From Candidatus Omnitrophica bacterium UBA6215 (lineage in GTDB: Bacteria; Omnitrophota; Gorgyraeia; Pluralincolimonadales; Pluralincolimonadaceae): a DNA stretch of 64,000 nucleotides. A program made the position numbers and the translations under genes. The stretch spans positions 84,879-148,878 of the forward strand of contig DISH01000006.1 of the NCBI GenBank assembly GCA_002421665.1, written 5' to 3'. Below the pieces are notes generated by a model, which worked only from the letters and a program-made list of their open reading frames with translations, searched no databases and had not been told where the DNA came from. This document shows, piece after piece, positions 39,650 to 58,899 of this stretch; the first letter of the stretch is position 1; the number at the start of each line of letters is the position of its first letter.

Positions 39650-39651
39650 GT

Positions 39652-42211: not shown

Positions 42212-42213
42212 TC

Positions 42214-45088: not shown

Positions 45089-45096
45089 CTCTCCTC

Positions 45097-47610
45097 CTAT
45101 TTACAATATACCACCTTAGCGGGCGGTAAATAAGTCATCGTAACATCTTCCAGGACGGGGGTCTCCGCGTAGCCGGCATCGGAACTTGATAACGTCGCTA
45201 TAAAAGCTGCGCCGGAAGACACGCCTCCTATCGGACCATCCTTTGAAACGCCGATGGTGCCTATACCCCTGTCAACCTGCATCGACACCCGTTCTGAAAC
45301 TTCGCTGGCCGTAGAGGGCAGAGTCAGTGTCCATGAGATAGTGCCCCACCTGACATTTTCGGAGGTTATCATGTTCGGACAGCGATAAGAACCCGAGGAC
45401 GGTATTATCCTTAGTTCATCCCATTTAGGCGAAGCATTGTTGCCATAAAGCGCAGGATACCATTGCGTAAGCTGCCAGTTGTTCAAGTCATTGTTGTTGA
45501 TCGTCCAAAAACCGTAACGGTCGCGCTTGAGCTCGTTAGAGGCGTCATTATGGAACGGGATCATTACATAGTTCGTTGTCGCCGGGCTGAAACCGACGCT
45601 TCCGAGAAACCATCCGTTGTTGAAATTATAATACCTGTGCCAACCCTGGCCTACGGCAAGGTAGACGCGGTAATTCGGGCTCTGGGTTGCGCTTACCACC
45701 AGTTTAAGCGTCTCCTTCACGGGGCAGACACCGTGGAATTGTTCGAATCCCTGGTCCCCGGATGAGACGGTATAGTCGAAATAGTGGTTGACCTGCGGAT
45801 CGGACAGGCCGTAAAGGTAACCTATATTATATGTGCGTTCGTTCCTAAGCGACGGGGAGTTATTCCACATATGAAGCAATATCTTGCTGTCCGCAAAATC
45901 CTTTCCTTCGCGGGAAGACGCCGGTTCGTTCGTCGCAGAGTCACGCTCGACCGTCCAGCCGGGCCGGGTTATATCCCTTCTCGGGGAATATTCAAAACCC
46001 CAGTTCTGTGTCCAGAGTTTTCCCTTGACCTGGTTCGCCCATGTAAAATCAACATGTCCGGTATCTTCCCAGCCGTCGCCGCCCGGGGAAGGCCTCAGCG
46101 ACACCCTGAAAGAAAAAGCATTGCCGAATGTCCATCTGCTGTTATCCGACAATGCAAACTTAGGCCATCCTTCCCCCCACATCTCACAGTCCCCGTCGGA
46201 ATCGCTGTCAGATATATAAAGCGTGGCGTTCTGTTGCTGCCAATTCGACCAGCTGTACCCGGTCTTGTTCGTATTATCGTTGTCCTCGTCAAAGTTGTCC
46301 CAGAACCCAAGCTTGAGCGAATTGGGAACGGTTGTGTAATCAGAAGCGTAGATAAGGCCCTGGTCATCCGTAGATACCACCGGACAGGAATTCAGCCAGG
46401 TTACCCTTGAAAAAACCGGCTGGTCCAGGACGCCGTTGCCGTTCTTGTCCTCGCCCGGATCCAGCAGGCCGTTATAGTTCGCGTCCTCTCCGCGGAACTG
46501 TTCCTTCGTCGTGTAACTGACCACTTCAAATATCTTTACGACCGCCAGGGTCTCTTGCGCTGAACCAGTCCTGTCAACAGGGTCTGAAAGATCGCCGTCA
46601 GAATTCGTATCTATACCGACAGTCCCGGTAGAACATATTTCAAAGTAGCCCCCGGGATTGAAACAGAAATCCGTGGTATACAAAGAAGGCTTCACCCTGT
46701 TGGGATTGGCATTGGCTTTTATATTTATCCTGTCGATGGAACTAAGGGACGGGGTTATGGAAACATTATCTATAAAATCGTCGAATCCCCCTGATGCAGC
46801 CGTCCCGTTCCAGCTCCTGAAAGGCACAGAGGAACGTTGTGTCACGATCGCAGCGGCAAGAGCCGATGCCTGCGCATCCGTTACTATTCCCATCAGGACT
46901 GCCCGGAGAACCTCCTGGCCGGCGGTATTAATATTGACGGGGGCTTTCCTCTGGTAACTTCCGGGGCCTGTCATCCCCGGAGAAGTGCTGTCCTCGCTGT
47001 TCTCATCTATGTACCCGTAGACACAGATATAATCCCTGACCACGGCATACTTTGAGGCATCCCATCCGGAAGATGTCATTACCTCTTCCTTGGTAGCGAA
47101 CGGCCTGTTGGTATTATCGGCTATGGCCTCTCCATCTGCCCGGGCCAGGCCCAGTACGACCGCAAGATTGCCAAGAATGGTCCTTAAATTTGGGTTCGTA
47201 TCGTTTACATTGACCTGCGAAGCAGTATCCGTCACCTTCAATGAATATACGGCTATGCTGTTCCTCCCGATATCACCTAAAGAACCGCTGGTACCGTTGC
47301 CCGCTATCCCGTCACGAAGGTCGAACGACGGGTTGGAAGCGCTTGTGTAATTCCAGTCGCAGGAAGCCGACGGAAGCCCGATAAAATCGCTCGCGGAGAG
47401 TTCCCTTAAATACACCACTGCCAGGCTGATCCCGGCGTCCGAGGCCTGTTTGGCTTTCATATTCTCTATGTGGTTGGACGATGCTTTGAGATCAAAAGTC
47501 ATATTAAAAGCAAAAGAGGTGGCTATCAGCGCGACGAGAGCAAGCACTCCCACCGTCACGATAAGAGCTACGCCTTTATTGTCTCTTCTTCTGATAAGGT
47601 CTTTGGTCAT
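45097..47610 (-). CDS. Giant GspK-like minor pseudopilin (837 aa), paralog 2
   Basis: It has a prepilin-like N-terminus RRRDNKG|VALIVTVGVLALVALIATSF without Glu+5, which is GspK-like. It also has the helix-hairpin-helix motif PVNINTAGQEVLRAVL and a C-terminal motif TPVLEDVTMTY shared with the 951-aa paralog. Confidence 0.6.
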   Translation of the reverse strand: MTKDLIRRRDNKGVALIVTVGVLALVALIATSFAFNMTFDLKASSNHIENMKAKQASDAGISLAVVYLRELSASDFIGLPSASCDWNYTSASNPSFDLRDGIAGNGTSGSLGDIGRNSIAVYSLKVTDTASQVNVNDTNPNLRTILGNLAVVLGLARADGEAIADNTNRPFATKEEVMTSSGWDASKYAVVRDYICVYGYIDENSEDSTSPGMTGPGSYQRKAPVNINTAGQEVLRAVLMGIVTDAQASALAAAIVTQRSSVPFRSWNGTAASGGFDDFIDNVSITPSLSSIDRINIKANANPNRVKPSLYTTDFCFNPGGYFEICSTGTVGIDTNSDGDLSDPVDRTGSAQETLAVVKIFEVVSYTTKEQFRGEDANYNGLLDPGEDKNGNGVLDQPVFSRVTWLNSCPVVSTDDQGLIYASDYTTVPNSLKLGFWDNFDEDNDNTNKTGYSWSNWQQQNATLYISDSDSDGDCEMWGEGWPKFALSDNSRWTFGNAFSFRVSLRPSPGGDGWEDTGHVDFTWANQVKGKLWTQNWGFEYSPRRDITRPGWTVERDSATNEPASSREGKDFADSKILLHMWNNSPSLRNERTYNIGYLYGLSDPQVNHYFDYTVSSGDQGFEQFHGVCPVKETLKLVVSATQSPNYRVYLAVGQGWHRYYNFNNGWFLGSVGFSPATTNYVMIPFHNDASNELKRDRYGFWTINNNDLNNWQLTQWYPALYGNNASPKWDELRIIPSSGSYRCPNMITSENVRWGTISWTLTLPSTASEVSERVSMQVDRGIGTIGVSKDGPIGGVSSGAAFIATLSSSDAGYAETPVLEDVTMTYLPPAKVVYCK

Positions 47611-47701
47611 TGCCGCAAAAAATATACCTTATAAAAAATGTTAATTCAAGAGTAAAAAATACCCACGAGGGCATAACAGCATAAAAACATTACGTCGCAG
47701 C

Positions 47702-48601
47702 TTATTTCCTTCTGCCCGCCGCAAAGGCACCGATATCGCCGCGGGAACCGTCGGGGTCGTTATATTGCTTGTCCGGGTCCCCTGAATCTATACATGGAGA
47801 GCCTGCTTTAAGGCTATAATCATCCTTGGACGGGTTCATGAATTTTGGATCCGAAATCAGGTCATGCTCTCCCTTTTTGCAATCGATAAAATCCTTAACA
47901 TCCCAAAATATGTTATACTCCAGCTTAAGATAGACATCTTCACGGGGTTTCTGCCAGTATTTAGCCGCGTCTTTCTCGGATACGTCATTTGGGTTCGCCA
48001 TAATGGGGGGTTTTGTCACGAATATACCTACCCTGTTATTATAGAAGATACTATTCCTTATAGTAAGGTCTATGGGACCCTGCCAAAGCTGCAGCCCGTA
48101 TCCGCCGTTGATGATATCGCAGTTCGAGATGACCGCATTCTCCACCGAGCTTATTTTCAGGCACGTGGATAGGTTCTTCCCCCTCAATATGCAGTTCTTC
48201 ATCTTCAGGCCGTTCATGCCATTGACGGACAGCGGAAATCCGTCAACTTCTATCGTCAGGGCCTCCAGAGTAAGGTTGTTTATACTGCCGTTAACGGAAA
48301 CTATTGACAGGCCTTCCCGGCCCAATTTAATTGTCGTCCTGTCGGCTCCGTGTCCAGCCAAACGGGTATTACCCTTGAAGATCGTGGAGCCGTCCGCAGA
48401 GAAATCCCCCTCGCCCAGAAATATCGTATCGCCCGGCAGCGACTTTTCGCAGGCTTCTTTTATCGTCTTGCAGTCACCCGGAACGCGTATTGTATATTTA
48501 TCTGCGATCGCCGCAATAGAAACCGCATTGACCGCTAAAAAACCCGTCAGGACAGCGGACAACAAACGCATTTTACCCATATCGATAATCTTCCGGTTCA
48601 T
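47702..48601 (-). CDS. Secreted right-handed beta-helix repeat protein (pectin-lyase fold-like)
   Basis: It has a signal peptide, and repeated motifs NCILRGKN...ISNCDIINGGYGLQL...IRNSIFYNNRVGIFV typical of parallel beta-helix repeats. The start may be an internal Met. Confidence 0.5.
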   Translation of the reverse strand: MNRKIIDMGKMRLLSAVLTGFLAVNAVSIAAIADKYTIRVPGDCKTIKEACEKSLPGDTIFLGEGDFSADGSTIFKGNTRLAGHGADRTTIKLGREGLSIVSVNGSINNLTLEALTIEVDGFPLSVNGMNGLKMKNCILRGKNLSTCLKISSVENAVISNCDIINGGYGLQLWQGPIDLTIRNSIFYNNRVGIFVTKPPIMANPNDVSEKDAAKYWQKPREDVYLKLEYNIFWDVKDFIDCKKGEHDLISDPKFMNPSKDDYSLKAGSPCIDSGDPDKQYNDPDGSRGDIGAFAAGRRK

Positions 48602-51453
48602 CGTTGATAGAATACCGTTGTAAAAGGTTTATGGTAGATAACCGTGACATCCGTAAGTACCGGGGTCACGCTGCTCGCCGAATAATCATTTGGATCAAGC
48701 GCGCTCGTTGCCAACAGGGCCTTATACTGGAACTTCCTCCCGGAGATAGCCGAGACCGAGTCTCCGCTTGCATAAGTGGAGACGAAGCTGTCCGAGGACG
48801 ATGCCCTCGCATACATGGTTATCGATGTGCTGGTCGGTATTATAGCATTCCATGTTATGGTATCCCATGATATCCCTGTGTTATCTGTCGGTAATTTCGT
48901 GATCAAAGGAGCCGATACGATATACCCCTTCGGGTATATGATCCTGACGTCATCGAACTGGTTGACGCATTCTGAGTCGGAACCCCACCAATCGGCATTC
49001 CTCTCTGCCAACTCTTCTATGAAAGCATTATTCGCGTGAGTGCTCCAGAACTGGGTAAAATCGGCATAATAAAGGTTATTGCCCCTTAATTTTACCACTC
49101 CTTCTTTTGAAGCACTGCCGGCTACGCGCAGAGCACCCTGCACGAAACCGGAGCCCGCCGAAGTGGTATAAGTATAATAGGGCCTGTAAGACGTCCCTAC
49201 CCCCACGGCTGCCAATATATAATACCGGGAATCATCCGGCCATATCGCATATGTCGCATTCCCTACGATTTTACCGGGCAAATTAGTCTCGTTCATATCC
49301 ACCGAATAAAGATCGTTATCGCCATCCTTCACAAGGGTATAATAGCCCCCGGTGGCTTTGGTCCCCTCGTAAGGCTCCTCCTTAAGAAAGAGATAGCCTG
49401 TTAACCATGAAGGACTGTAAGCGGGGGTGGGCTGTCCCGGGTTCGTCAGGCGCTTGCTCGGGGGTTTATGCCATACCCAGCTACCGGTCTGCTGCTGGCC
49501 GTCATCATAGACATAACATCTGGCAAATATATCATATCCCAACTCGGCGCTTGGGGCGTAATAATTGCCGTTGACTTCTGCGCTCCTCTCTTCGGGATAA
49601 CGCTGGACTGTGGTTCCTTCCACGATATCGGTATAATAACCTTTCATATCAAGCCTCAAGCTGTACGTTCCGTCAAAACCCTGCCTTAGGGAGGTATCGC
49701 CGAAACTCAGGTCCCATCTCGAATCAGTTCCCCAGATCACATCGGTAGGGATGTCGAAAGTCTTGCCATCCGGAAAAGTATAACTTACGGCAGGCGTGAC
49801 TCCCGTGATCTTGGCCAGATATCCGCCTCTCCATGTTACGACACTGTAGGCTACATCGTCATCAAAATCATCCCAATAACCGAGTTTGACAGAATCATAA
49901 CATTTCGTATAACCGGAGGTCTCCCATGCCATGCAGGAACCGTTCCACGAGTCGGCGCTTATAGGGCAGGAGTCCAGCCAGGTTACGTTCCTGACCTCGC
50001 CATCGCTCAGATCTCCGTAATCCGAGAACCAAGCTGCATAAAACTCGGCCCTGGTAGTCTGCGTCATGGTATTAAAAACTTCCACGACGGATACCATCTG
50101 CCTCTCGGCAAGCGTGGAGCCATCCGCCCTCTTCGCTTTACCCGTAGCCACTATTTTGATTATCCCCCCGGAATTGTAATCCGCGCCAAGGGTCGATGCG
50201 GGAACGCGGTCTGATGTGGTCCATTTATCAAGTATCCTGCCGTAATACGAAGTAGGCAGGTAAGCAAAATAATCGGCTGGGACATAATCTTCCGCGCCAA
50301 GGGCATTCCATTTCAGTTCCAAGGTATTCTGGTTCTCATAATTGTAGAAATCGAACCTTATCGGATGCCACCCTCCGCGGGTAAACTTCACGGAACCGCT
50401 GGTAAGCGCTCCGGAACTCCAGGTGCCCATAGACCTCTCCGTCCAATCCGCTATAAGCTGCCTCCCGTCTATAAAAAGCCTGCATCCCTGTTCGCTGCGC
50501 ATCCTGAACGTTATGTCCTGGTTTATCTTGTTATCGGGGATATAGATGAAACCCGTAAATACCATGCCATAGCGTTCCATCCCGTATTTATTTTGCCAGT
50601 CGGTTATGACATATCCCCCGGAAAATTCCGCGTCATGCGCTTCTGCCCACCCCGAATTATCTCCGTCTGTCCCCGGGAAAGTCCCTGAAGGCGGGTATGG
50701 GCTCGAAGCAGCAGCCTTCGCCTCTTTCATAGCACCCAGATCTATGACCTTTCCTGAATAATAATCGAGGGAAAGTATGGTGTCCCTGCTCCAGGTCTCC
50801 CTGCTGTTAGTATAACCTTTGCATATCAGGCCGCCTTGTATTAACGGCGCATATATCGTAATGAGGCCTTTTATGCTATTGTATTTCCCGTCATCCTTGA
50901 GGACCAGACGAACCTCTTCTATAGTGGCAAAGGGCGCATTCTTGGCGTTTGTCTCGTCGCCGGCTGCCGAGACACGACCCGTAGAGGTCAGCAGCTGCGT
51001 CGTTGCGCTGGAGTCCTGGTCGACATAATCGATTATCTTCGCAATATCGTCATAGCTCAGGCCTGCGGCAGCAAGCGTTTCGATCCACGGGTAATCGGTC
51101 TCGTCGATATTGTTGATATTGATCACTTGGTCCTGTCTTTCGACATAAACCTGGCAGCTCCCTCCCGGAAGGTCTACCTCGGTACCGGGAGAAGAATAAT
51201 TTGCCGCTATATCAGCCATTAGCGCGCTGTAACCGTTACTTGCCGCCCAGCTGCGTATTTCCGCAACAGCGCGGTCGATGCCTGCCCGAGCCATCTCCTC
51301 AGCCTGGGTCTGGTTGACGAAATTCTGGACTGCCTTATACTCCATCTGCATGTTTATGGCGAAACTCGTGGCTATCATAGCCACGAGCGCAAGTATGCCT
51401 ACGGCTATTATAAGGGCAACGCCTTTCTTTTGTTTTAAGACCGCCTTATCCAC
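48598..51453 (-). CDS. Giant GspK-like minor pseudopilin (951 aa) carrying a PA14 domain, paralog 1
   Basis: It has the N-terminus KQKKG|VALIIAVGILALVAMIATSF without Glu+5, a GspK-like motif VININNIDETD...NAPFATIEEV, and a PA14-like segment GFIYIPDNKINQDITFRMRSEQGCRLFIDGRQLIADW...WHPIRFDFYNYENQNTLELKW. Confidence 0.6.
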   Translation of the reverse strand: MDKAVLKQKKGVALIIAVGILALVAMIATSFAINMQMEYKAVQNFVNQTQAEEMARAGIDRAVAEIRSWAASNGYSALMADIAANYSSPGTEVDLPGGSCQVYVERQDQVININNIDETDYPWIETLAAAGLSYDDIAKIIDYVDQDSSATTQLLTSTGRVSAAGDETNAKNAPFATIEEVRLVLKDDGKYNSIKGLITIYAPLIQGGLICKGYTNSRETWSRDTILSLDYYSGKVIDLGAMKEAKAAASSPYPPSGTFPGTDGDNSGWAEAHDAEFSGGYVITDWQNKYGMERYGMVFTGFIYIPDNKINQDITFRMRSEQGCRLFIDGRQLIADWTERSMGTWSSGALTSGSVKFTRGGWHPIRFDFYNYENQNTLELKWNALGAEDYVPADYFAYLPTSYYGRILDKWTTSDRVPASTLGADYNSGGIIKIVATGKAKRADGSTLAERQMVSVVEVFNTMTQTTRAEFYAAWFSDYGDLSDGEVRNVTWLDSCPISADSWNGSCMAWETSGYTKCYDSVKLGYWDDFDDDVAYSVVTWRGGYLAKITGVTPAVSYTFPDGKTFDIPTDVIWGTDSRWDLSFGDTSLRQGFDGTYSLRLDMKGYYTDIVEGTTVQRYPEERSAEVNGNYYAPSAELGYDIFARCYVYDDGQQQTGSWVWHKPPSKRLTNPGQPTPAYSPSWLTGYLFLKEEPYEGTKATGGYYTLVKDGDNDLYSVDMNETNLPGKIVGNATYAIWPDDSRYYILAAVGVGTSYRPYYTYTTSAGSGFVQGALRVAGSASKEGVVKLRGNNLYYADFTQFWSTHANNAFIEELAERNADWWGSDSECVNQFDDVRIIYPKGYIVSAPLITKLPTDNTGISWDTITWNAIIPTSTSITMYARASSSDSFVSTYASGDSVSAISGRKFQYKALLATSALDPNDYSASSVTPVLTDVTVIYHKPFTTVFYQR

Positions 51454-51462
51454 TCTATACCT

Positions 51463-52212
51463 CTACTGTACGCGTATGAAATCCGTAAAAGTCCTCTTCT
51501 GGCTCCCGTCGCGGCTTTGTATCGTTATTGAAACCGCTACCGCGTTGGGCAAACCATCCGGGACCTTCGCGTTGTTCCCGTCGTCATAATTCTGGCTGGG
51601 GCTTCCATCAAGGAGGTCCAGTCCGGAATTCCACTCGCTCGCCGTCGTTGCCGGAAGCCCCCCGACGGCGGACTTATAATAATATGTGAACTGCAAGTCC
51701 GTAACATTGCGCGCTATGATATCATCGGAAAAAGTCCCTGAACTGTTGTTTGAAAAATCGTATACCACCGGGACCGTGCTGCCATTAAAATATTCGAAAT
51801 GCCTCATTAGGCAGTTATCGTCACGAAGCCAGTAACCTATTTCGCACAGGTCCTGCATACCGGGGTTATCTTCAACCGGCGCCACAAGGAACAACTCATC
51901 GGCGACAGAACCGGATTTAATTATATAGGTGCCGCCCTTGTCGTTGCCCTGGAACTTTGTCCAATAGCCGGTATTATCCGATTTCTGGTAGAGTACGGCA
52001 GAGGGTATCTCCTTGCGCATAAGTTCCAGCGCGAACCTGGCATTCTGGTATATATCCAGCAATGTCTCGGATTTACGCCATGAATCGAGGGCCCCCCTGA
52101 AGACCGTGAACAGCGATAGAACAACTATAGAGAAGATAACAGAAACTACCAGTATCTCCACAAGGGTGAGTCCTGCCCTGCAGGCCTTTAAATTCTTACC
52201 TGTCCGCGACAT
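51463..52212 (-). CDS. Type IV prepilin-like minor pseudopilin (GspJ/PilW-like)
   Basis: It has a class III signal MSRTGKNLKACRAG|LTLVEILVVSVIF with Glu+5. Confidence 0.6.
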   Translation of the reverse strand: MSRTGKNLKACRAGLTLVEILVVSVIFSIVVLSLFTVFRGALDSWRKSETLLDIYQNARFALELMRKEIPSAVLYQKSDNTGYWTKFQGNDKGGTYIIKSGSVADELFLVAPVEDNPGMQDLCEIGYWLRDDNCLMRHFEYFNGSTVPVVYDFSNNSSGTFSDDIIARNVTDLQFTYYYKSAVGGLPATTASEWNSGLDLLDGSPSQNYDDGNNAKVPDGLPNAVAVSITIQSRDGSQKRTFTDFIRVQ

Positions 52213-52549
52213 TTATGGTAAAACCTCTCTGAAAACTCTTATTGCCCTGCCCCCAGCCGACAGTGCAGATCACCTGCCTTAAATTATCCACGGAGGTAGT
52301 CGAGACCGTCTGGGTCCAGGTATATGCGGGATCTGTGAACGTGCCTGAGGTAGTGCCGAGACTGGGAAAACCGTTGTTCCTTATCCGTTCAAAATGCTCG
52401 TGGGCGAATATCGTGGCCTGGGTGGCGCTTACCGACCTTCGGGCGGAATCGAAACCTATCGGGAAAAGGGACAGTATCCCCACCAGCCCTATCGCGAGGA
52501 TAGAAAGAGAGATGATTATTTCGATGAGGGTAAATCCGCTCCTCTTCAC
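52196..52549 (-). CDS. Type IV prepilin-like minor pseudopilin (GspI-like)
   Basis: It has MKRSG|FTLIEIIISLSILAIGL with Glu+5, and at 117 aa has a GspI-like size. Confidence 0.65.
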   Translation of the reverse strand: MKRSGFTLIEIIISLSILAIGLVGILSLFPIGFDSARRSVSATQATIFAHEHFERIRNNGFPSLGTTSGTFTDPAYTWTQTVSTTSVDNLRQVICTVGWGQGNKSFQRGFTINVADR

Positions 52550-52577
52550 GCTGCGCCCTCGCTTTTACCGGCCCGGC

Positions 52578-53075
52578 TTATCTGGTCCAGTTCGTTACGT
52601 TGTCCGTGCCTCCGACCACCCTGTCCGGACCATACGAAATAATATCGACGTAATAACCGCCGTGCCCTGAAGTATCGGGATTAGTATAAGTCAATGCCGT
52701 GCCCCAGGCATCGATTATCGTGCTGCCTCCGGTAAGGTCATTGTCCTTGAATGTCATATAAGGTCCCGACCAGTTGGTAGTAGGAAGCGTGTAAGTACCG
52801 GTACCTATAACATAGTTACCGGTATTGTTCACAAGGCAGTTATACAAGTTAGTATTGCCGCTTCGCGGATAACCGCCAAGATCAGCCTGGAACATCCCAA
52901 TACCGGTCTCTATCGCGGCTATCATCGCCTTTGTGCGGGCTATCATCGCCTTCTGCCTTGCGGTCTGGGCGGCCGCCGCCACCAATCCCGCCAACAGCAA
53001 TATTATAGTCATGACGACCACAAGTTCTATTATGGTGAAACCTTTCTTCCTGTTCGTCCTAACCATATTAACCAC
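52578..53075 (-). CDS. Major pseudopilin / type IV pilin (GspG-like)
   Basis: It has MVNMVRTNRKKG|FTIIELVVVMTIILLLAGLVAAAA with Glu+5, and a GspG-like length and periplasmic domain. Confidence 0.75.
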   Translation of the reverse strand: MVNMVRTNRKKGFTIIELVVVMTIILLLAGLVAAAAQTARQKAMIARTKAMIAAIETGIGMFQADLGGYPRSGNTNLYNCLVNNTGNYVIGTGTYTLPTTNWSGPYMTFKDNDLTGGSTIIDAWGTALTYTNPDTSGHGGYYVDIISYGPDRVVGGTDNVTNWTR

Positions 53076-54333
53076 CTCCTAAAGCTGTTACGAGCTGGAA
53101 GAGCGGCAAGAACATGGCTATTACTATGAACCCGACTATCATACCCAGCCCGATGATCAAAAACGGCTCTAGCAACGACATCAAACCCGTTACAGTGACA
53201 TCGACCTCTTCATCATATACATCTGCGACCTTCAACAACATCTGGTCCAAGGCACCTGTCTCCTCCCCTACGGAGATCATGTTAACGGCCATCGCCGGGA
53301 AGAGCCCTGCCTTAAGCAGGGGTTTGGCTATCGTCTCCCCTTCCCTTACCGCATCGTGTACCACCACTATGGAACGGGCCATCGCCTCATTGCCGGTAGT
53401 GTCCTTCGAGACCATAAGGGATTGCAATATAGGCACACCGCTTGACAACAGCGTTCCGAGCGTCCTGGAGAAACGGGCGATGGCAATCTTCCTTAACAAC
53501 TGGCCCATTACCGGTATCTCCAACTTACCCTTATCAATCAGAAGTTTTGTCACAGGCAAACTGTATAGGACATTCCATAGGACGATGAGTAATACTACTA
53601 AGCCTATGCCGATATACCATCTGCTCCTCGCAAAATCGCTGACCACAAGGAGGACTTTGGTCATTACCGGAAGTTCTACGTTCATTTCTTTGAATATCTG
53701 CAAAAATTTGGGGACGATAAACGTTATAAGAAAACCCAGTACCGATAGAGCCATGGTAAGAACGAGGGCGGGATAGACCATGGCCGATTTTATCCTTCCC
53801 TCCAATCTTTGGGATTTTTCGGCAAACTCCGCAAGACGGGTAAGTACCACTTCGAGCACACCGCCGGCTTCACCCGCCTTTACCGTATTTACATACAGGG
53901 GCGGGAACGCCTTGGGGAATTTTGAAAGCGCTTCGGAAAAAGAGCTGCCGCCTTCAACCTGCTCGGCAAGCCCGCGGATAGTAGTCTTCAATATCCCCGA
54001 CTTCTCTTGCCTTTCAAGGACATACAAGGCGCGGACAAGGGGCAGACCGGAACCTATAAGGGTAGCCAGCTGCCTGGTAAACACGGTTATCTGCTTGGCG
54101 CTGACACCTCCGAAAGACAGGCTTAAAGCTGATTTCGCCGGCTTGGGGCCGCCGGGTATCTCCCTGTTCCTTAAGGGAGATCCGTCATTTTTATCCTTCT
54201 CTTCATTGATACTTATGGGATAAAGGCCCTTCTGGCGCATCTGCTCCATGGCATCCTGATTGCCGGAAGCCTCGAGCCTGCCTTTACTCTCCTTGCCGTC
54301 CTTGTCTATAGCGACGTAATTGAAGATGGCCAT
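53068..54333 (-). CDS. Inner-membrane platform protein GspF/PilC family
   Basis: It has two T2SF repeats and three TM helices. A strong RBS GGGGGAG precedes the ATG. Confidence 0.85.
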   Translation of the reverse strand: MAIFNYVAIDKDGKESKGRLEASGNQDAMEQMRQKGLYPISINEEKDKNDGSPLRNREIPGGPKPAKSALSLSFGGVSAKQITVFTRQLATLIGSGLPLVRALYVLERQEKSGILKTTIRGLAEQVEGGSSFSEALSKFPKAFPPLYVNTVKAGEAGGVLEVVLTRLAEFAEKSQRLEGRIKSAMVYPALVLTMALSVLGFLITFIVPKFLQIFKEMNVELPVMTKVLLVVSDFARSRWYIGIGLVVLLIVLWNVLYSLPVTKLLIDKGKLEIPVMGQLLRKIAIARFSRTLGTLLSSGVPILQSLMVSKDTTGNEAMARSIVVVHDAVREGETIAKPLLKAGLFPAMAVNMISVGEETGALDQMLLKVADVYDEEVDVTVTGLMSLLEPFLIIGLGMIVGFIVIAMFLPLFQLVTALGGG

Positions 54334-54402: not shown

Positions 54403-56154
54403 CTACATTACGGAAGATTGAGCCTCCTTTAGCACCTCTTCTGCGGTTGTGACCCCGGCGTTTATCTTTTCCAGGCCGTCGTCCAGGAGCGTCTTCATGC
54501 CGTTCTCAATAGCAGCTTTCTTTATAAGGGCTGTATGCGCCTTTTCTATCACAAGCTGCCTTATCTTCTCGTTCAATACAAGGAGTTCGTATATACCCGT
54601 CCTGCCTTTGTAACCCGAATTGTTGCATTTCACGCAACCTGTGCCCCTGTAAAATTTCCTGTTTTTCGCTTCTTCGGGCGCCAGCCCCAGGTCGGATATC
54701 AGTTCGGGTTCCGGGATATACTCTTCCTTGCAGTTCTGGCATATCTTGCGCACAAGCCTCTGGGCGAGCACCGCTTCAAGCGTGGAAGTCACGAGAAATG
54801 GCTCGACGCCCATATCGATCAACCTCGTGATGGTTCCTGCTGCGTCGTTGGTATGCAACGTAGAGAAGACCAAATGTCCGGTAAGGGAAGCCTGTATCGC
54901 TATCTGTGCGGTCTCGGCATCCCTTATCTCGCCTACCATTATTATATCGGGATCCTGCCTTAATATATGGCGAAGGGACGTGGCGAATGTAAGGCCTATC
55001 TTAGCATTTATCGGGACCTGTATTACACCCTTAAGGTCGTACTCAACAGGATCCTCGGTCGTGATAACTTTATATTCTATTTTGTTTATCTCCCTCATGC
55101 ATCCATATAATGTAGTGGTCTTGCCGCAACCGGTCGGCCCGGTAGTAAGGAATATGCCGTTGGGTTTGACTATTATGCTCCTTATCCTCTTCTTGGTTTC
55201 ATCGAGCATCCCGACCTCGTCTATGGAAAGGCTTACCGTCGTCCTGTCGAGGACCCTCATGACGATGCTCTCACCGAATATCGTAGGCAAAGTAGATATA
55301 CGCAGGTCCACGCTCTTGCCTTCTATCGTGACCATGATGCGCCCGTCCTGCGGAAGGCGGCGCTCGGCTATATCAAGGTTCGCCATGACCTTTATCCTGG
55401 ATGACAGGCCGAGGCTAAGGTTCTTCGGAGGCCTGGCTACCTCGTAAAGGACGCCGTCCACCCTGTACCTTATCCTGTAATCTTGTTCGAAAGGCTCGAA
55501 ATGTATGTCGGATGCCTTCTCCCTGACCCCCTGGAGAAGTATCATATTAAGGAGCTTGATTACGGGGGCGCGTGAAGCAAGCTCCTGGAGTGTAGCTATG
55601 TCATTTATCTCTTCTCCCTCAGGGACAAGCTCCATCTTCTCGCCAAAGACGCCGAGGACGTCCTGTATCGTCTCGCCCTCGGAACCGTAATACCTCTGTA
55701 TCTGCTCCTTTATCTCCTCGTCGCTGGCAACCACACCCTTTATGTTCATCCCGAGGGTAAACCTCAGGTCGTCAAAAGCGGCTACATTTAGCGGGTCCGC
55801 TATGGCTATCGAAAGCTGGTTGCCTTCAACAGAAACCGGGAGGATGGTATATATCTTCGCAACGGAAGCCGGGACCTTGTCAATGACCTCCTTAGGGATC
55901 TTCATGTCCTTGAGCCTGACCACAGAGAACCCGGACCGCGCCCCCAGCAGCTGCAGGATATCGTCTTCCTTGACGATACCCATATCGACGAATATCCTTC
56001 CTAGAAGCTTGCCGGTAAGCTTCTGCTCTTCCAGAGCCTGCTCGAGCTGGCGTTCGTTTATCATCCCCTTCTCAAGGAGAAGCTGGCCTATCCGCTTGTA
56101 TTTTTCCTGTTTAGGTTGCTCTTTTTCGGCAGCCATACCTATATTACTCCTCAT
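54403..56154 (-). CDS. GspE/PilB-family secretion ATPase 2 with an N-terminal MshEN-type domain
   Basis: It has the Walker A motif TGPTGCGKTTTLY and a tetracysteine CQNC...CVKC. Its N-terminal RIGQLLLEKGMINERQLEQALEEQ matches the 24-residue MshEN c-di-GMP-binding consensus. Confidence 0.9.
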   Translation of the reverse strand: MRSNIGMAAEKEQPKQEKYKRIGQLLLEKGMINERQLEQALEEQKLTGKLLGRIFVDMGIVKEDDILQLLGARSGFSVVRLKDMKIPKEVIDKVPASVAKIYTILPVSVEGNQLSIAIADPLNVAAFDDLRFTLGMNIKGVVASDEEIKEQIQRYYGSEGETIQDVLGVFGEKMELVPEGEEINDIATLQELASRAPVIKLLNMILLQGVREKASDIHFEPFEQDYRIRYRVDGVLYEVARPPKNLSLGLSSRIKVMANLDIAERRLPQDGRIMVTIEGKSVDLRISTLPTIFGESIVMRVLDRTTVSLSIDEVGMLDETKKRIRSIIVKPNGIFLTTGPTGCGKTTTLYGCMREINKIEYKVITTEDPVEYDLKGVIQVPINAKIGLTFATSLRHILRQDPDIIMVGEIRDAETAQIAIQASLTGHLVFSTLHTNDAAGTITRLIDMGVEPFLVTSTLEAVLAQRLVRKICQNCKEEYIPEPELISDLGLAPEEAKNRKFYRGTGCVKCNNSGYKGRTGIYELLVLNEKIRQLVIEKAHTALIKKAAIENGMKTLLDDGLEKINAGVTTAEEVLKEAQSSVM

Positions 56155-57856
56155 AGCCGTGCGTGATGCGCACGACCTCAGAAATCGTCGTTATGCCTTC
56201 CCTTACCTTATTAAGGCCGTCTTCCCTCAGGAGCTTCATGCCGCTGCGGCGAGCGGCTTCCCTTATCTCCTGCGAAGAAAGCCTTTTTACTATCATCTCG
56301 CGTATCTCGTCATTATTGACCAGCAGCTCAAATATTCCGATCCTTCCTTTGTATCCGGTATAATTACACATTTTGCATCCTTTACCCCTGAACAGCTGCA
56401 TTTCTTCGACGGCCTTCGGGTCGCCGGACTTCTGTCCCAGGAGATACAATTCTTCGTAGGAAGGTTTATAGGGCTCCTTGCAGTTCTGGCATATCTTGCG
56501 CACAAGCCTCTGGGCCATGACCGCCTGGACCGTAGAGCTGACGAGATATGACTTTACACCCATATCTATGAGCCGGGTAAATGCGCCGGCGGCATCGTTG
56601 GTATGCAGAGTACTGAAAAGAAGATGCCCCGTAAGGGCAGCCTGTATGGCTATAGACGCGGTCTCAAAATCACGGATCTCGCCGACCATTATTACATCGG
56701 GCGCCTGCCTGAGCATGGTCCTTAATCCCGAGGCGAAGGTGAGTCCTATCGAGGGCCGTACATGGACCTGATTTATGCCCGAGATCTGGTACTCGACCGG
56801 GTCTTCTACCGTTATAAGTTTTTTATTGGGTTTATTTATATAGCTAAGGGCCGCATAAAGCGTCGTTGTCTTTCCGCTTCCGGTAGGGCCCGTAATAAGC
56901 AACATGCCGTACGGCAGGTGTATCAGTTTCTCGAAAGTCTCTGCATCCTCATGGAGGAACCCGAGCTCGGCAAGGCCAAGCATAAAACTGGACTTATCGA
57001 GGATCCTCATGACCACGCTCTCCCCGTATATAGCCGGAAGCGTGGAGACGCGCAGGTCAAGGTCCTTGCCCATGCCTTGTATCCTTATCCTGCCGTCCTG
57101 CGGCAGGCGCTTCTCGGCTATATTCATGCCCGCCATGATCTTAAGACGGCTCAATATGGAAGGTTGCAGCTGTTTCGGGGGGCCGGGAACTTCGTGCAAT
57201 ACGCCGTCTATCCTGTACCTCACGCGGAACTTGTCTTCAAGCGGCTCAACATGTATATCGGAAGCGCGGTTCTTTACGGCTTCGGATATTATCTGGGTAA
57301 CAAGCTTTATTATGGGCGCTTCATCCTTTTCTTCTTCTTTCACGACTTCAGCCGCGACGCCTTTAAAAGATACCGTCGCGTTGTCGTCCTGTTTCTGCGC
57401 AACGGCATCCAGTATGTTCTTGCTTCCTCCGTAATGTTTCTCAAGCGCTATGTTTATGTTCGATTCGGAGCTAAAAACAAAATCGATCTTCGAGCCTATA
57501 AACGTTTCAAGGTTGTCCTGGGCCAGAAGGTTAATGGGATCATCCGTTGCAATGGTCAGGATATCATTCTCGAATTTGATGGGAACCAACTTGTGGCGGT
57601 ATGCTAATGCCGGTTTTACCTTGGAAAGGATATCGAAGGGGATTTCCATATCGAATATAGGGGCGCGGACAAGGGAAAACTCCTGGATTATAAGATCTCT
57701 GAGCTGTTCGGTCTGGAGGAACCCTATGCCGTTGAGGATATCGGAAAGACGGTTTCCGGAATCAAGCTGCGATTTCAGGACACTCTTTAATTGGGATTCG
57801 TCAAGTATCCCTATCGACTTGAGGTATTCGCCTATAAGCCTGCTTCTATTGATCAA
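56144..57856 (-). CDS. GspE/PilB-family secretion ATPase 1 with an N-terminal MshEN-like domain
   Basis: It has the Walker A motif TGPTGSGKTTTLY and a tetracysteine CQNC...CKMC. It starts at a TTG preceded by the RBS AAGGGGGAGAG. Its N-terminal RLIGEYLKSIGILDESQLKSVLKSQ resembles the MshEN motif with one inserted residue. Confidence 0.9.
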   Translation of the reverse strand: MINRSRLIGEYLKSIGILDESQLKSVLKSQLDSGNRLSDILNGIGFLQTEQLRDLIIQEFSLVRAPIFDMEIPFDILSKVKPALAYRHKLVPIKFENDILTIATDDPINLLAQDNLETFIGSKIDFVFSSESNINIALEKHYGGSKNILDAVAQKQDDNATVSFKGVAAEVVKEEEKDEAPIIKLVTQIISEAVKNRASDIHVEPLEDKFRVRYRIDGVLHEVPGPPKQLQPSILSRLKIMAGMNIAEKRLPQDGRIRIQGMGKDLDLRVSTLPAIYGESVVMRILDKSSFMLGLAELGFLHEDAETFEKLIHLPYGMLLITGPTGSGKTTTLYAALSYINKPNKKLITVEDPVEYQISGINQVHVRPSIGLTFASGLRTMLRQAPDVIMVGEIRDFETASIAIQAALTGHLLFSTLHTNDAAGAFTRLIDMGVKSYLVSSTVQAVMAQRLVRKICQNCKEPYKPSYEELYLLGQKSGDPKAVEEMQLFRGKGCKMCNYTGYKGRIGIFELLVNNDEIREMIVKRLSSQEIREAARRSGMKLLREDGLNKVREGITTISEVVRITHGYEE

Positions 57857-57887
57857 AGCCCGACTCTCTCCCCCTTATATTTCACGA

Positions 57888-57905
57888 GCGCCGCGGACGC
57901 GGCGC
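57888..57905. promoter_or_regulatory. Perfect GC-rich inverted repeat GCGCCGCG-GA-CGCGGCGC in the leader of the pilus ATPase operon (candidate operator)
   Basis: It is an 8-bp perfect palindrome with a 2-nt spacer, about 30 nt upstream of the ATPase-1 RBS and just downstream of the HTH-TM gene. No U-tract follows it. Confidence 0.3.
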
Positions 57906-57995
57906 AATCACCATGCTCCGGAGAAACAGTTTTCACCTTGTCCTCAAACAACCCAAGCTTTACCCTTATATTACCACATTTTGTATTTACTTCAA

Positions 57996-58391
57996 CTATT
58001 TCCTGGTAATAATGAACACCGTCAAAAGCACTATCAGGATAAAGACGAGGATATAGAAATCGTTCAGATAAACAAAATCCCTGACTTTATCGAAAAGCGA
58101 ATACCTTTGCCTGCTTTCGGGCTCACTCGTCGGGGAGAGATGGTAGATGGGGACGGACTGGTGTTTTAGCACCTTAAGGCGGCTCTTAAGGGCCGCGACC
58201 TGCCCCTTCCTGAGCCTTACGAACTCCCCTCCTATCCTGTAGGCCGGGATCTTGCCTTCGGCCACAAAAGACTTTACATCTTCCTCGTCCAACTCGAGTA
58301 TGCTTGCAGCTTCCTCGATGGTTATAAGCCTTTCGCGGTCGCTTTTCCCGTCCGGAGCTCTATTTAATTCTCTCCGAGCTGATCCATTCAT
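57996..58391 (-). CDS. Membrane-anchored HTH (excisionase/MerR-type HTH_17-like) DNA-binding protein
   Basis: It has LITIEEAASILELDEEDVKSFVAEGKIPAYRIGGEFVRL (helix-turn-helix) and a C-terminal TM helix FYILVFILIVLLTVFII. Confidence 0.5.
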   Translation of the reverse strand: MNGSARRELNRAPDGKSDRERLITIEEAASILELDEEDVKSFVAEGKIPAYRIGGEFVRLRKGQVAALKSRLKVLKHQSVPIYHLSPTSEPESRQRYSLFDKVRDFVYLNDFYILVFILIVLLTVFIITRK

Positions 58392-58899
58392 CTATTTTCG
58401 CTTTGTCAAAATGAAGTTTATCGCCTTCCCTGATAGACGGAAGTTTTCCGTTAGACGCCCAATCCGACACGACGGAGACATCCACTTCCAGATACCTGGC
58501 GACCTCATCCGTATCCATCAACTGCGCTCCGGATTGGGAAACGCTCTTTATCCCGGAAGTCATCTGGCAGTTCCCGTTCAAGACGGAACCCTTGCCCACC
58601 TCAAGGAGGGGAGTGCGTATATTGCCGTCCACCCTGGCTGGTGAAATAAGCTTCAGGGATTTCTTCGCGATCACTTCGCCCGTTACCCGGCCGGCTATCG
58701 TGATCTCGTCACCGGTTATATTGGCATTGACGAAAGCCTTCTCTCCTATGGTCAAAGTCCCCTTCGTGTCCAGGGTACCTTCGAACCTGCCGTTTATCTG
58801 CAGGTTCACGGGGTCTTTGAACGACATGGTGCCTTGCATGCTGGCGTCTACGTCCAATACCTTCTCTTCCACCTTCTTGTTCTTGCCTATCATCGCCAA
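58360..58899 (-). CDS. Bactofilin fused to a C-terminal HTH_17-like DNA-binding domain
   Basis: It has the bactofilin beta-helical repeats ...DGNIRTPLLEVGKGSVLNGNCQMT (cf. BacM ...GNIHTPRLTIEEGAVFNGNIRM). The C-terminus reads DTDEVARYLEVDVSVVSDWASNGKLPSIREGDKLHF. Confidence 0.65.
   Translation of the reverse strand: MAMIGKNKKVEEKVLDVDASMQGTMSFKDPVNLQINGRFEGTLDTKGTLTIGEKAFVNANITGDEITIAGRVTGEVIAKKSLKLISPARVDGNIRTPLLEVGKGSVLNGNCQMTSGIKSVSQSGAQLMDTDEVARYLEVDVSVVSDWASNGKLPSIREGDKLHFDKAKIDEWISSERIK

What the first reader, a model, noticed from the sequence alone, without database searches (positions are those of the whole stretch)
54403..57856. Tandem GspE/PilB ATPases, both with MshEN-type c-di-GMP-binding motifs
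Both 570-583-aa ATPases keep Walker A, the tetracysteine zinc site and an N-terminal T2SSE_N domain. ATPase 2 carries RIGQLLLEKGMINERQLEQALEEQ, a 24/24 positional match to the published MshEN consensus RLGxxL(V/I)xxG(I/F)(L/V)xxxxLxxxLxxQ. ATPase 1 has a near match (RLIGEYLKSIGILDESQLKSVLKSQ). Two extension-type ATPases rather than a PilB/PilT pair is unusual. A stand-alone GGDEF protein is encoded elsewhere in the window, so c-di-GMP control of this machine is plausible.
Basis: partly seen in the sequence, partly recalled or inferred. Interest (0 to 1): 0.55.

Follow-up and report, generated by a model that had tools for sequence, protein, structure and literature searches.

The report
Paired pilus-assembly motors, one c-di-GMP-ready
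Two neighbouring genes in an uncultured Omnitrophota bacterium encode sister motors that build a type IV pilus; only the second keeps an intact binding site for the signal molecule c-di-GMP, and the pair is a phylum-wide arrangement that normally has a retraction motor gene between the two, which this lineage has lost.

Summary
The two ORFs exist where stated, on the minus strand. Both are full-length PilB/GspE-type assembly ATPases, 46% identical. Both have an MshEN/GSPII N-domain, all catalytic motifs and the Cys4 site. ATPase 2 more likely starts at its second ATG (577 aa, not 583).

The window is from Candidatus Omnitrophota. The pair heads that phylum's type IVa-pilus-like cluster. In more distant relatives the order is pilB1-pilT-pilB2-pilC. 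In this lineage pilT is gone and the two genes lie 7 nt apart.

The claim that both carry c-di-GMP motifs is only half right.
- ATPase 2 fits all 22 specified positions of the relaxed 53-residue MshEN site, with L also allowed at position 1. It passes NCBIfam's c-di-GMP_motif cutoff. Its model superposes on c-di-GMP-bound MshE. Its orthologues keep the key glycines (94-95%).
- ATPase 1's quoted peptide is one residue out of register. It fails 4 of 22 positions and the NCBIfam cutoff. Its orthologues keep those glycines in only 19-29% of cases.

Neither protein is PilT-like, and they are old paralogues, not recent ones.

Best reading: two assembly motors share one platform, and only PilB2 is gated by c-di-GMP. 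This is an independent variant of the Acinetobacter PilB/TfpB two-motor idea. Interest is moderate.

The parts
56144..57856 (-). ATPase 1 (PilB1-type assembly ATPase, 570 aa, TTG start). It has an MshEN-fold N-domain, the ATPase core and a Cys4 site.
   Evidence: Pfam T2SSE 1.3e-143 and MshEN 2.2e-14. NCBIfam PilB 634 bits and GspE 633 bits. A 100% identical database protein, P0001, is 570 aa.
57680..57838 (-). Degenerate 53-residue MshEN site of ATPase 1 (residues 7-59): LIGEYLKSIGILDESQLKSVLKSQ-LDSGN-RLSDILNGIGFLQTEQLRDLIIQE.
   Evidence: HMMER alignment to 5HTL MshE. 18 of 22 relaxed positions are met. NF053729 scores 27.3 bits against a cutoff of 38.
54403..56136 (-). ATPase 2 (PilB2-type assembly ATPase, 577 aa from the second ATG; the ORF's first ATG is at 56154).
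   Evidence: Pfam T2SSE 4.3e-142 and MshEN 6e-21. NCBIfam GspE 654.6 bits and PilB 644.5 bits. P0121 is 100% identical and 577 aa. JGI gene call. Junction sequence.
55936..56094 (-). Intact 53-residue MshEN c-di-GMP site of ATPase 2: RIGQLLLEKGMINERQLEQALEEQ-KLTGK-LLGRIFVDMGIVKEDDILQLLGAR.
   Evidence: NF053729 scores 63.7 bits against a cutoff of 38. 22 of 22 relaxed positions are met. It aligns to PilF GSPII-B 'KLGELLL...DLLGRILV'. The AF2 model matches 5HTL with TM 0.88 and rmsd 1.8 A.
53068..54333 (-). Single platform protein PilC/GspF (421 aa).
   Evidence: Pfam T2SSF 1.5e-59, two stretches. TIGR02120 scores 411.9 bits.
51463..53075 (-). Three prepilin-type genes: a GspG-like major (pseudo)pilin of 165 aa and two N_methyl proteins of 117 and 249 aa.
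   Evidence: Pfam T2SSG and N_methyl.
43895..51453 (-). Four genes: a giant GspK-like minor pilin with a PA14 domain (951 aa), a beta-helix protein (299 aa), a second GspK-like protein (837 aa) and an unknown 397-aa protein.
   Evidence: Pfam PA14, Beta_helix and T2SSK. NCBIfam T2SS_GspK N-terminal hits.
40773..43851 (-). Alignment-complex genes: a PilM-PilN fusion (545 aa, related to the Amuc_1101 family), an Amuc_1100-like protein (254 aa) and an unknown 225-aa protein.
   Evidence: Pfam PilM_2 and PilN. NCBIfam Amuc_1101_fam 1e-82, pilM 152 bits against a cutoff of 133, and a weak Amuc_1100_fam hit.
37434..40767 (-). Outer-membrane module: a TPR plus N0/STN protein (371 aa) and two tandem half-size secretins (364 and 374 aa, 46% identical to each other).
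   Evidence: Pfam Secretin 4e-38 and 2e-43. Pairwise comparison.
31854..32372 (-). Stand-alone GGDEF diguanylate cyclase (172 aa) between coaE and rho.
   Evidence: Pfam GGDEF 3e-23. DID and GGDEF motifs are present.
57853..58005 (-). Remnant of the 3' end of larC directly upstream of ATPase 1. It is the scar of a larB-larC deletion, and its TGA stop overlaps the TTG start of ATPase 1.
   Evidence: The translation ...EVNTKCGNIRVKLG...VSPE..DCA...GERVGL* matches the C-terminus of the 407-aa LarC-like ORF upstream of pilB1 in L003.
57996..58899 (-). A bactofilin-HTH_17 fusion (179 aa) and an HTH_17 protein (131 aa). They are conserved just upstream of the pilus cluster across Omnitrophota. Their link to the machine is unproven.
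   Evidence: Pfam. Synteny in L001-L012, L037, L081 and L082.

Best explanation
These are the two paralogous assembly (extension) motors, PilB1 and PilB2, of the type IVa-pilus-like machine of an Omnitrophota bacterium.

Shown:
- Both are complete PilB/GspE-type ATPases with every catalytic motif and the Zn-Cys4 site conserved.
- They are co-transcribed head to tail upstream of a single PilC/GspF platform gene, pilins, a PilM-PilN fusion and secretins.
- The pair is conserved across the phylum. It usually occurs as pilB1-pilT-pilB2-pilC, and pilT has been deleted from between them in this lineage.
- PilB2 keeps the 53-residue MshEN c-di-GMP site. The PilB1 site is degenerate here and in most orthologues.

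Inferred:
- Both hexameric motors dock on the same platform and drive filament assembly.
- PilB2 is the c-di-GMP-gated motor, as in V. cholerae MshE and Thermus PilF GSPII-B. PilB1 works independently of c-di-GMP, and its N-domain is kept as a docking or regulatory module, as in XpsE and PilF GSPII-A.
- The c-di-GMP level, from enzymes such as the GGDEF protein in the window, therefore sets how much of pilus assembly is driven by PilB2. This is analogous to the division of labour between PilB and TfpB in Acinetobacter baylyi.
For: Identity as assembly ATPases: Pfam and NCBIfam. The two are 46% identical over their full length.

Catalytic motifs: Walker A, Asp box, Walker B Glu, His box, Arg fingers and all 4 Cys are conserved in about 100% of 118 PilB1-group and 120 PilB2-group proteins.

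Taxon: Omnitrophota.

Conserved pairing:
- L001-L007, L009, L012 and L032 have the two genes adjacent.
- L010, L011, L013, L014, L049, L081, L082, L085 and L086 have pilT between them.

c-di-GMP site (PilB2 against PilB1):

| Measure | PilB2 | PilB1 |
|---|---|---|
| NF053729 score of the window protein (cutoff 38 bits) | 63.7 | 27.3 |
| N-domains of relatives passing at about that level | 32/34 | 7/37 |
| Relatives meeting at least 21 of 22 relaxed positions | 101/121 | 7/119 |
| Gly at position 3 of motif I / motif II | 94% / 95% | 19% / 29% |

The backbone amide of that Gly hydrogen-bonds the guanine, and XpsE lost binding with G11V and G40L among other changes (PMC5013675).

The PilB2 motif II starts with Leu ('LLGRIFV'), like PilF GSPII-B ('LLGRILV'). 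GSPII-B binds with a KD of 6 nM, and the consensus was extended to (R/K/L)LG (PMC11731258).

AF2 N-domain models: PilB2 is closest to c-di-GMP-bound MshE 5HTL (TM 0.88, rmsd 1.8 A). PilB1 is closest to the non-binding PilF GSPII-A 9G1W and fits 5HTL poorly (TM 0.55, rmsd 7.2 A).

Precedent for two extension motors on one machine: PMC8213720 and PMC11656802.
Against: - No binding was measured. The motif alone is not sufficient: a consensus-restored PilF GSPII-A still did not bind (PMC12002112).
- The window's PilB2 has Arg rather than Gln at the last position of motif II. That is one of the deviations listed for the non-binder GSPII-A, although the relaxed pattern allows it.
- The window's own PilB1 still has Gly in motif I (LIG), so weak binding is not excluded.
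- In some relatives (L085, L086) PilB1 keeps a canonical site. The 'one gated, one not' split is therefore lineage-specific, not a defining property of the pair.
- That both motors act on the same platform is inferred only from there being one pilC gene.
- c-di-GMP barely changes MshE or PilB2 (C. perfringens) ATPase activity in vitro, so the gating mechanism is unclear even in the model systems.
Confidence: 0.55

Rival explanations
1. Both ATPases are c-di-GMP receptors. PilB1 binds through a shifted Arg and a tolerated Ser at the motif II glycine position, so the whole machine is doubly gated by c-di-GMP.
For: - PilB1 has the MshEN fold.
- Its motif I fits the extended (R/K/L)LG consensus except at position 7.
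- NF053729 still detects homology (E 2.4e-6).
- In relatives L085 and L086 both paralogues carry canonical motifs, so double binding was probably the ancestral state.
Against: - The score is below the curated cutoff (27.3 against 38 bits).
- Motif II fails at G3S, h7N and Q24E.
- Close relatives at 83% identity have Ala at the motif I Gly, and most orthologues have E, K, A or I there. The site is therefore not under selection in this clade.
- The model resembles the non-binder GSPII-A.
Confidence: 0.17
2. The two ATPases power two different filaments or sub-machines, for example a secretion-type pseudopilus and an adhesive pilus. Each would pair with one of the duplicated secretins and one of the GspK-like tip proteins, and they would share only the platform gene.
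For: - The cluster contains other paralogue pairs: two secretins 46% identical to each other and two giant GspK-like proteins.
- Extension ATPases are usually machine-specific (PMC11656802).
Against: - There is only one PilC/GspF and one PilM-PilN in the cluster.
- The 951-aa GspK-like gene and the beta-helix gene are missing in L009 and not evident in L081/L082, all of which still have both ATPases. The duplications are therefore not coupled.
- Whether relatives also have two secretins was not examined.
Confidence: 0.15
3. After the loss of pilT, one PilB paralogue (most likely PilB1) acts as the antagonist or retraction motor, or the two form hetero-hexamers that can switch direction.
For: - pilT is absent from the locus and from the 64-kb window.
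- No PilT cluster shares a contig with the window clade among the top 120 PilT hits.
- Bifunctional motors exist in other type IV filament systems. Caulobacter CpaF is an example (from my own knowledge, not checked here).
Against: - Both proteins keep the N1 domain and Cys4 site typical of assembly ATPases and group with PilB/GspE, far from PilT.
- In relatives both coexist with PilT, so the pair did not evolve to replace it.
- pilT may simply lie elsewhere in the genome.
Confidence: 0.07

Closest known systems
Vibrio cholerae MshE and its MshEN domain (PDB 5HTL; Wang et al. 2016, PMC5013675)
   Same: - The architecture is an N-terminal MshEN domain followed by a T2SSE ATPase with a Cys4 site.
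- ATPase 2 has two 24-residue motifs with a 5-residue spacer.
- Its AF2 model superposes on c-di-GMP-bound MshEN (TM 0.88, rmsd 1.8 A, 31% identity).
   Different: - ATPase 2 has I for L at position 2, Leu rather than Arg at the start of motif II, and Arg rather than Gln at its end.
- The gene cluster is not an MSH cluster (PilM-PilN fusion, GspK-like giants, split secretins).
- ATPase 1 lacks R9 in register and has G40S and Q61E.
Thermus thermophilus PilF GSPII-B (binder, KD 6 nM) and GSPII-A (non-binder) (PMC11731258, PMC12002112)
   Same: - The ATPase 2 motif II 'LLGRIFV' mirrors GSPII-B 'LLGRILV', which has no Arg at position 1.
- ATPase 1 resembles GSPII-A: the fold is kept, motif II is degenerate with the Gly replaced, and 9G1W is its best structural match.
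   Different: In PilF the binding and non-binding domains are fused in one polypeptide. Here they sit on two separate paralogous motors.
Acinetobacter baylyi PilB + TfpB, two extension motors on one T4P machine (Ellison et al. 2021, PMC8213720)
   Same: Two phylogenetically distinct PilB-like assembly ATPases occur in one organism with a single pilus machine. This suggests a division of labour in extension.
   Different: - Neither protein is a TfpB orthologue (NF053534 scores 485 and 463 bits against a cutoff of 850).
- Here the two are adjacent, or flank pilT, in one operon.
- The differential c-di-GMP site is specific to this case.
- Function is untested.
Omnitrophota type-4a pilus clusters (Seymour et al. 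2023, PMC10066038)
   Same: This is the same phylum and the same kind of cluster. That paper reports T4aP clusters as near-universal in the phylum and proposes a role in attachment to host cells.
   Different: In the passages I read, the paper scores presence or absence only. It does not describe the two PilB paralogues, the pilB1-pilT-pilB2 order or the MshEN sites.
Xanthomonas XpsE/GspE N-domain (PDB 2D27/2D28)
   Same: It is a GSPII/MshEN-fold N-domain that has lost c-di-GMP binding through changes including G11V and G40L. It serves as a docking domain instead, which is a model for ATPase 1.
   Different: XpsE belongs to a classical T2SS without PilT. Both ATPases here score at the PilB/GspE borderline and sit in a PilM/PilN-type cluster.

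Membership tests
PilB/GspE-type assembly ATPase (Pfam T2SSE, PF00437, with N1 domain) | Walker A, Asp box, Walker B with catalytic Glu, His box and Arg fingers. | tested here: met
   All are present in both proteins. They are about 100% conserved in 118 and 120 relatives. Pfam E-values are 1e-143 and 4e-142.
PilB/GspE-type assembly ATPase (Pfam T2SSE, PF00437, with N1 domain) | An N-terminal GSPII/MshEN (N1) domain and the tetracysteine Zn site. These distinguish assembly ATPases from retraction ATPases. | tested here: met
   Pfam MshEN in both. CQNC...CKMC in ATPase 1 and CQNC...CVKC in ATPase 2. AF2 models have pLDDT 84.5 and 87.1, and their top PDB hits are MshEN/GSPII domains.
MshEN c-di-GMP receptor domain | Two 24-residue motifs (R/K/L)hGxxhhxxGhhxxxxhxxxhxxQ joined by a 5-residue spacer. 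| tested here: met
   ATPase 2: 22 of 22 relaxed positions are met. The only strict deviations are I2, M11, L1' and R24'.
MshEN c-di-GMP receptor domain | The same two-motif site, tested in ATPase 1. | tested here: not met
   ATPase 1: 18 of 22 positions are met. Failures are K at I-7, S at II-3, N at II-7 and E at II-24, and the Arg is displaced by one residue. Orthologues keep the position-3 glycines in only 19% and 29% of cases.
MshEN c-di-GMP receptor domain | Score above the curated cutoff of NCBIfam NF053729 'c-di-GMP_motif' (38 bits). | tested here: met
   ATPase 2 scores 63.7 bits, and 32 of 34 relatives pass at about that level. ATPase 1 scores 27.3 bits, which is not met, and only 7 of 37 relatives pass.
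MshEN c-di-GMP receptor domain | Measured high-affinity, specific c-di-GMP binding. | not testable with these tools
   This needs ITC, DRaCALA or nanoDSF on purified N-domains. The motif alone is not sufficient (PMC12002112).
PilT/PilU retraction ATPase | About 350 aa, no N1 domain, and a score above the TIGR01420 cutoff (319 bits). | tested here: not met
   The scores are 189 and 167 bits. The proteins are 570 and 577 aa with an N1 domain. They lie far from the PilT genes of related loci in the tree.
TfpB (second extension motor of Acinetobacter) | Score above the NF053534 cutoff (850 bits). | tested here: not met
   The scores are 485.5 and 463 bits.
Type II secretion GspE versus type IVa PilB | An equivalog HMM score above cutoff, together with the system context. 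| tested here: inconclusive
   - GspE TIGR02533 scores 633.5 and 654.6 bits against a cutoff of 630.25, which is marginally above.
- PilB TIGR02538 scores 634.4 and 644.5 bits against a cutoff of 675.65, which is below.
- The context favours T4aP: PilM/PilN, pilT inside the cluster in relatives, and T4aP assignments for the phylum by TXSScan (PMC10066038).

The most novel reading that the evidence does not exclude
Omnitrophota and some neighbouring lineages (UBP18-type MAGs, a Tepidisphaerales MAG) run a three-motor type IV pilus with the order PilB1-PilT-PilB2. Two dedicated assembly motors would have been kept for a very long time. c-di-GMP would choose between them, or between homo- and hetero-hexamers. 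In lineages such as this one, which have lost pilT from the locus and degraded the PilB1 site, PilB1 would have taken on a new role: initiator, antagonist, or c-di-GMP-independent constitutive motor for host attachment by these ultra-small, possibly predatory cells.
Probability: 0.15. Interest if true: 0.65.

Novelty: new variant of a known kind. Interest (0 to 1): 0.4.

Why it matters
How type IV pilus extension is regulated, and why some bacteria keep more than one PilB, are open questions. The 2024 review PMC11656802 has a section devoted to the second one.

A phylum-wide, operon-encoded pair of assembly motors is a natural experiment on two-motor extension and on the evolution of MshEN receptors:
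- One paralogue keeps an MshEN c-di-GMP site. The other has lost it in most lineages but not all.
- The purified N-domains and ATPases can be tested in vitro even though the organisms are uncultured.
- Omnitrophota are thought to use these pili to attach to hosts.

The components are all of known kinds and nothing here is mechanistically unprecedented, so the value is moderate.

Tried and rejected
- Exact-sequence look-up of the 583-aa ORF found nothing. The recorded gene starts at the second ATG. The 570-aa ATPase 1 was found, and it placed the window on JGI contig Draft_10000041.
- I tested whether the two are recent or sister paralogues. An NJ tree puts the two groups next to each other, but bootstrap support is weak: PilB1 group 22/100, PilB2 group 73/100, sisterhood 10/100. 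I claim only 'old, distinct paralogue groups, not PilT'.
- I looked for pilT elsewhere in the genome by matching contig lengths of PilT homologues. None matched the contigs of the window clade. Only the top 120 hits are listed and only contig lengths are compared, so this is inconclusive.
- I looked for a c-di-GMP riboswitch or any other Rfam family in the window and found none.
- Promoter and terminator scans around the ATPases were at chance level.
- PilT-like identity was rejected for either copy.
- TfpB orthology was rejected.
- The idea that the ATPase duplication is coupled to the duplicated GspK-like genes is not supported. L009 lacks one of them but keeps both ATPases, and the second GspK-like gene is not evident in the L081/L082 loci either.
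- The subdomain orientation in the AF2 models is used only as soft support.

Full report
**What is there**

Every sizeable gene in the 64-kb window is on the minus strand. At the given coordinates there are two consecutive ORFs: 56144-57856 (570 aa, TTG start) and 54403-56154 (583 aa).

Both match Pfam T2SSE end to end (E 1e-143 and 4e-142). Both also match Pfam MshEN, the renamed T2SSE_N, in the second half of the N-domain. NCBIfam places both at the PilB/GspE borderline. GspE TIGR02533 scores 633.5 and 654.6 bits against a cutoff of 630.25. PilB TIGR02538 scores 634.4 and 644.5 bits against a cutoff of 675.65. Both are far below the PilT (319) and TfpB (850) cutoffs.

The two proteins are 46% identical over their whole length. 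Walker A, Asp box, Walker B, His box, Arg fingers and two CxxC pairs are present in both.

ATPase 2 probably starts at the second ATG (56136). That start lies 7 nt after the ATPase 1 stop and behind a GAGGAG. The identical database protein is 577 aa, the JGI gene call starts there, and the orthologues begin MAxEK.

**Surroundings**

Downstream, in transcription order, the cluster contains:
- a single PilC/GspF;
- a GspG-like pilin and two more prepilins;
- a 951-aa GspK-like protein with a PA14 domain, a beta-helix protein and an 837-aa GspK-like protein;
- a PilM-PilN fusion related to the Amuc_1101 family, and an Amuc_1100-like protein;
- a TPR plus N0 protein and two half-size secretins that are 46% identical to each other.

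polA follows.

Upstream are an HTH_17 protein, a bactofilin-HTH fusion and housekeeping genes. The rest of the window is housekeeping. It includes a 172-aa GGDEF protein with intact DID and GGDEF motifs between coaE and rho, and a CdaA c-di-AMP synthase. There is no EAL, HD-GYP or PilZ domain and no Rfam family.

**Origin and conservation**

The closest proteins are from Candidatus Omnitrophota MAGs. The window matches a 206-kb JGI metagenome contig.

In ten genome loci from related MAGs, an ATPase 1 orthologue is followed directly by an ATPase 2 orthologue and then pilC (L001-L007, L009, L012, and L032 with a broken pilB1). The upstream synteny is the same.

In more distant relatives at 50-60% identity, a 354-418-aa PilT gene lies between the two. 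These are L010, L011, L013, L014, L081, L082, L085, L086 and a Tepidisphaerales MAG, L049. The order there is pilB1-pilT-pilB2-pilC. At least 25 PilT clusters share a contig length with PilB1 or PilB2 clusters of those relatives. None shares one with the contigs of the window's own clade.

So the pair is the phylum's norm. What is special here is that pilT has been lost from between the two genes. There is no PilT-like ORF in the window. Whether one exists elsewhere in the genome is unknown.

In a tree of the ATPase core, the PilB1-type and PilB2-type proteins form two separate groups, both far from PilT. Bootstrap support is modest, and the sister relationship of the two groups is unresolved. 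They are old paralogues, not recent ones.

**The c-di-GMP site**

Wang et al. (PMC5013675) define two 24-residue motifs joined by a 5-residue spacer. They also give a relaxed pattern, [RKPN]hGxxhhxx[GAS]hhxxxxhxxxhxx[QNKRYWST]. The backbone amides of the position-3 Gly and the next residue bind the guanine. The closing Gln binds ribose and phosphate. Neissner et al. extended position 1 to R/K/L. PilF GSPII-B has K and L there and binds with a KD of 6 nM (PMC11731258).

*ATPase 2.* The site is RIGQLLLEKGMINERQLEQALEEQ-KLTGK-LLGRIFVDMGIVKEDDILQLLGAR.
- It satisfies all 22 specified positions of the relaxed pattern once L is allowed at position 1, following Neissner et al..
- It aligns with GSPII-B 'KLGELLL...DLLGRILV'.
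- It scores 63.7 bits on NCBIfam's c-di-GMP_motif model, whose cutoff is 38.
- Its only notable deviation is Arg for Gln at the end of motif II.

*ATPase 1.* The site aligns to MshE with L at the R9 position, because the Arg is one residue early. It has K at position 7 of motif I. In motif II it has S for the Gly, N at position 7 and E for the closing Gln. That gives 18 of 22 positions and 27.3 bits, below the cutoff.

**Is the difference conserved?**

I compared 119 PilB1-group and 121 PilB2-group database proteins.

| Measure | PilB2 group | PilB1 group |
|---|---|---|
| At least 21 of 22 relaxed positions met | 101/121 | 7/119 |
| Gly at position 3 of motif I | 94% | 19% |
| Gly at position 3 of motif II | 95% | 29% |

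Relatives that are 83% identical to the window's ATPase 1 already have Ala at the motif I glycine. At an E-value equivalent to NCBIfam's cutoff, 32 of 34 PilB2 N-domains pass but only 7 of 37 PilB1 N-domains do. The PilB1 N-domain also evolves faster: mean column identity is 48% against 58%.

The PilB1 proteins that do pass, such as those in L085 and L086, also sit in pilB1-pilT-pilB2 operons. Both motors probably had the site originally, and PilB1 lost it in several lineages, including this one.

All catalytic residues are about 100% conserved in both groups, so neither is a pseudo-enzyme. PilB2 has a paralogue-specific Cys in Walker A (GPTGCGKT, 108/120). PilB1 has Ser there (117/118).

**Structure**

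AF2 models of both N-domains are confident (pLDDT 84.5 and 87.1). Both show the four-helix subdomain followed by an alpha/beta subdomain.
- The ATPase 2 model is closest to c-di-GMP-bound MshE (5HTL_B, TM 0.88, rmsd 1.8 A).
- The ATPase 1 model is closest to the non-binding PilF GSPII-A (9G1W). It fits 5HTL only at TM 0.55 and rmsd 7.2 A, meaning the subdomains are the same but oriented differently.

This is soft evidence, but it points the same way as the sequence data.

**Interpretation**

The two genes encode two active assembly motors for one type IVa-pilus-like machine. PilB2 is very probably a c-di-GMP receptor of the MshE or PilF-GSPII-B kind. I put that at about 0.7.

PilB1 most likely no longer binds c-di-GMP. 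Its N-domain would be kept for docking or another input, as in XpsE or PilF GSPII-A.

The closest functional precedent is A. baylyi. There PilB and TfpB both extend the same pilus with distinct roles (PMC8213720; review PMC11656802). The Omnitrophota pair is not orthologous to TfpB.

Seymour et al. (PMC10066038) reported T4aP clusters as near-universal in Omnitrophota and proposed host attachment as their role. In the passages I read, they did not describe the two motors or their MshEN sites.

**Caveats**
- Nothing was measured.
- A consensus motif does not guarantee binding. The consensus-restored GSPII-A stays inactive.
- c-di-GMP hardly alters ATPase rates in MshE or in C. perfringens PilB2.
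- The GGDEF gene is 22 kb away and is not specifically linked to the cluster.
- That the two motors share one platform is inferred only from gene content.

**Verdict**

The arrangement is a conserved variant of known parts, a dual-PilB type IV pilus with one MshEN-competent motor, in an uncultured phylum. It is of moderate interest.

Noticed in passing
window 56137-56143 (junction between the ATPases); compare L081 8931-9998, L082 8931-9998, L085 9717-10793, L086 9793-10863: More distant relatives have a 355-358-aa pilT gene between pilB1 and pilB2. Here the two genes are only 7 nt apart, so pilT has been cleanly deleted. No PilT-like ORF exists anywhere in the 64-kb window.
   Followed up: partly
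window 57853-58005 (- strand): The spacer upstream of ATPase 1 still encodes the last ~50 codons of a LarC-like gene (nickel-pincer cofactor). Related genomes (L003) have full larB-larC there, with the larC stop overlapping the pilB1 TTG start. This is the scar of a larB-larC deletion. Other relatives carry PHO4/PhoU at the same spot (L081, L082).
   Followed up: yes
window 37434-40767 (- strand): The outer-membrane channel appears split and duplicated. Two tandem half-size secretins (364 and 374 aa, 46% identical to each other, each with one Secretin_N and one Secretin domain) follow a separate TPR protein with weak N0/STN hits. This could be a hetero-oligomeric secretin. Conservation in relatives was not checked.
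   Followed up: partly
window 45097-51453 (- strand): There are two giant GspK-like minor pilins (951 aa with a PA14 domain, and 837 aa) with a 299-aa beta-helix protein between them. The 951-aa gene and the beta-helix gene are absent in L009 and not evident in L081/L082, so they look like a recent insertion, possibly an adhesin tip module.
   Followed up: partly
window 57996-58899 (- strand): A bactofilin-HTH_17 fusion and a second HTH_17 protein sit immediately upstream of the pilus cluster in every Omnitrophota locus examined (L001-L012, L037, L081, L082). In Myxococcus, bactofilin helps place PilB and PilT at the poles (from my own knowledge, not checked here). A functional link here is untested.
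   Followed up: partly
window 55111-55140 versus 56861-56890: There is a paralogue-specific Walker A residue. It reads GPTGCGKT in PilB2 (Cys in 108 of 120 relatives) and GPTGSGKT in PilB1 (Ser in 117 of 118).
   Followed up: partly
window 41447-43851 (- strand): The PilM-PilN fusion hits NCBIfam's Amuc_1101 family (E 1e-82, below cutoff), and the next gene hits Amuc_1100 weakly. This ties the cluster to the Akkermansia Amuc_1098-1102 pilus-like locus of the PVC group.
   Followed up: partly
window 54362-54390 (- strand): A near-consensus sigma-70-like promoter (TTGACA-17-TATATT, 11 of 12) lies in the 69-nt gap between ATPase 2 and pilC. The overall number of promoter-like sites in the region is at chance level.
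   Followed up: no
window 463-1308 (- strand): A CdaA-type diadenylate cyclase (DAC plus the CdaA_N domain) is present. The organism therefore encodes both c-di-AMP and c-di-GMP synthases within this window.
   Followed up: no
window 1-64000: Every sizeable gene lies on the minus strand, and GC skew is negative throughout. That is an unusually long co-oriented stretch. Rfam found no RNA family at gathering threshold.
   Followed up: no
window 20340-22559 (- strand): A 739-aa ORF (TTG start) has no Pfam hit. It overlaps the start of the RlmN-like gene (22361-23485) by about 200 nt, so its start is probably miscalled. Its function is unknown.
   Followed up: no
window 12700-20273 (- strand): This is a block of one-carbon and methyl-branch genes: formate-THF ligase, an FTCD_C protein, FolD, MTHFR with its C-terminal partner, and MetH with a split activation domain. 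It is consistent with the acetogenic or folate metabolism described for Omnitrophota.
   Followed up: no
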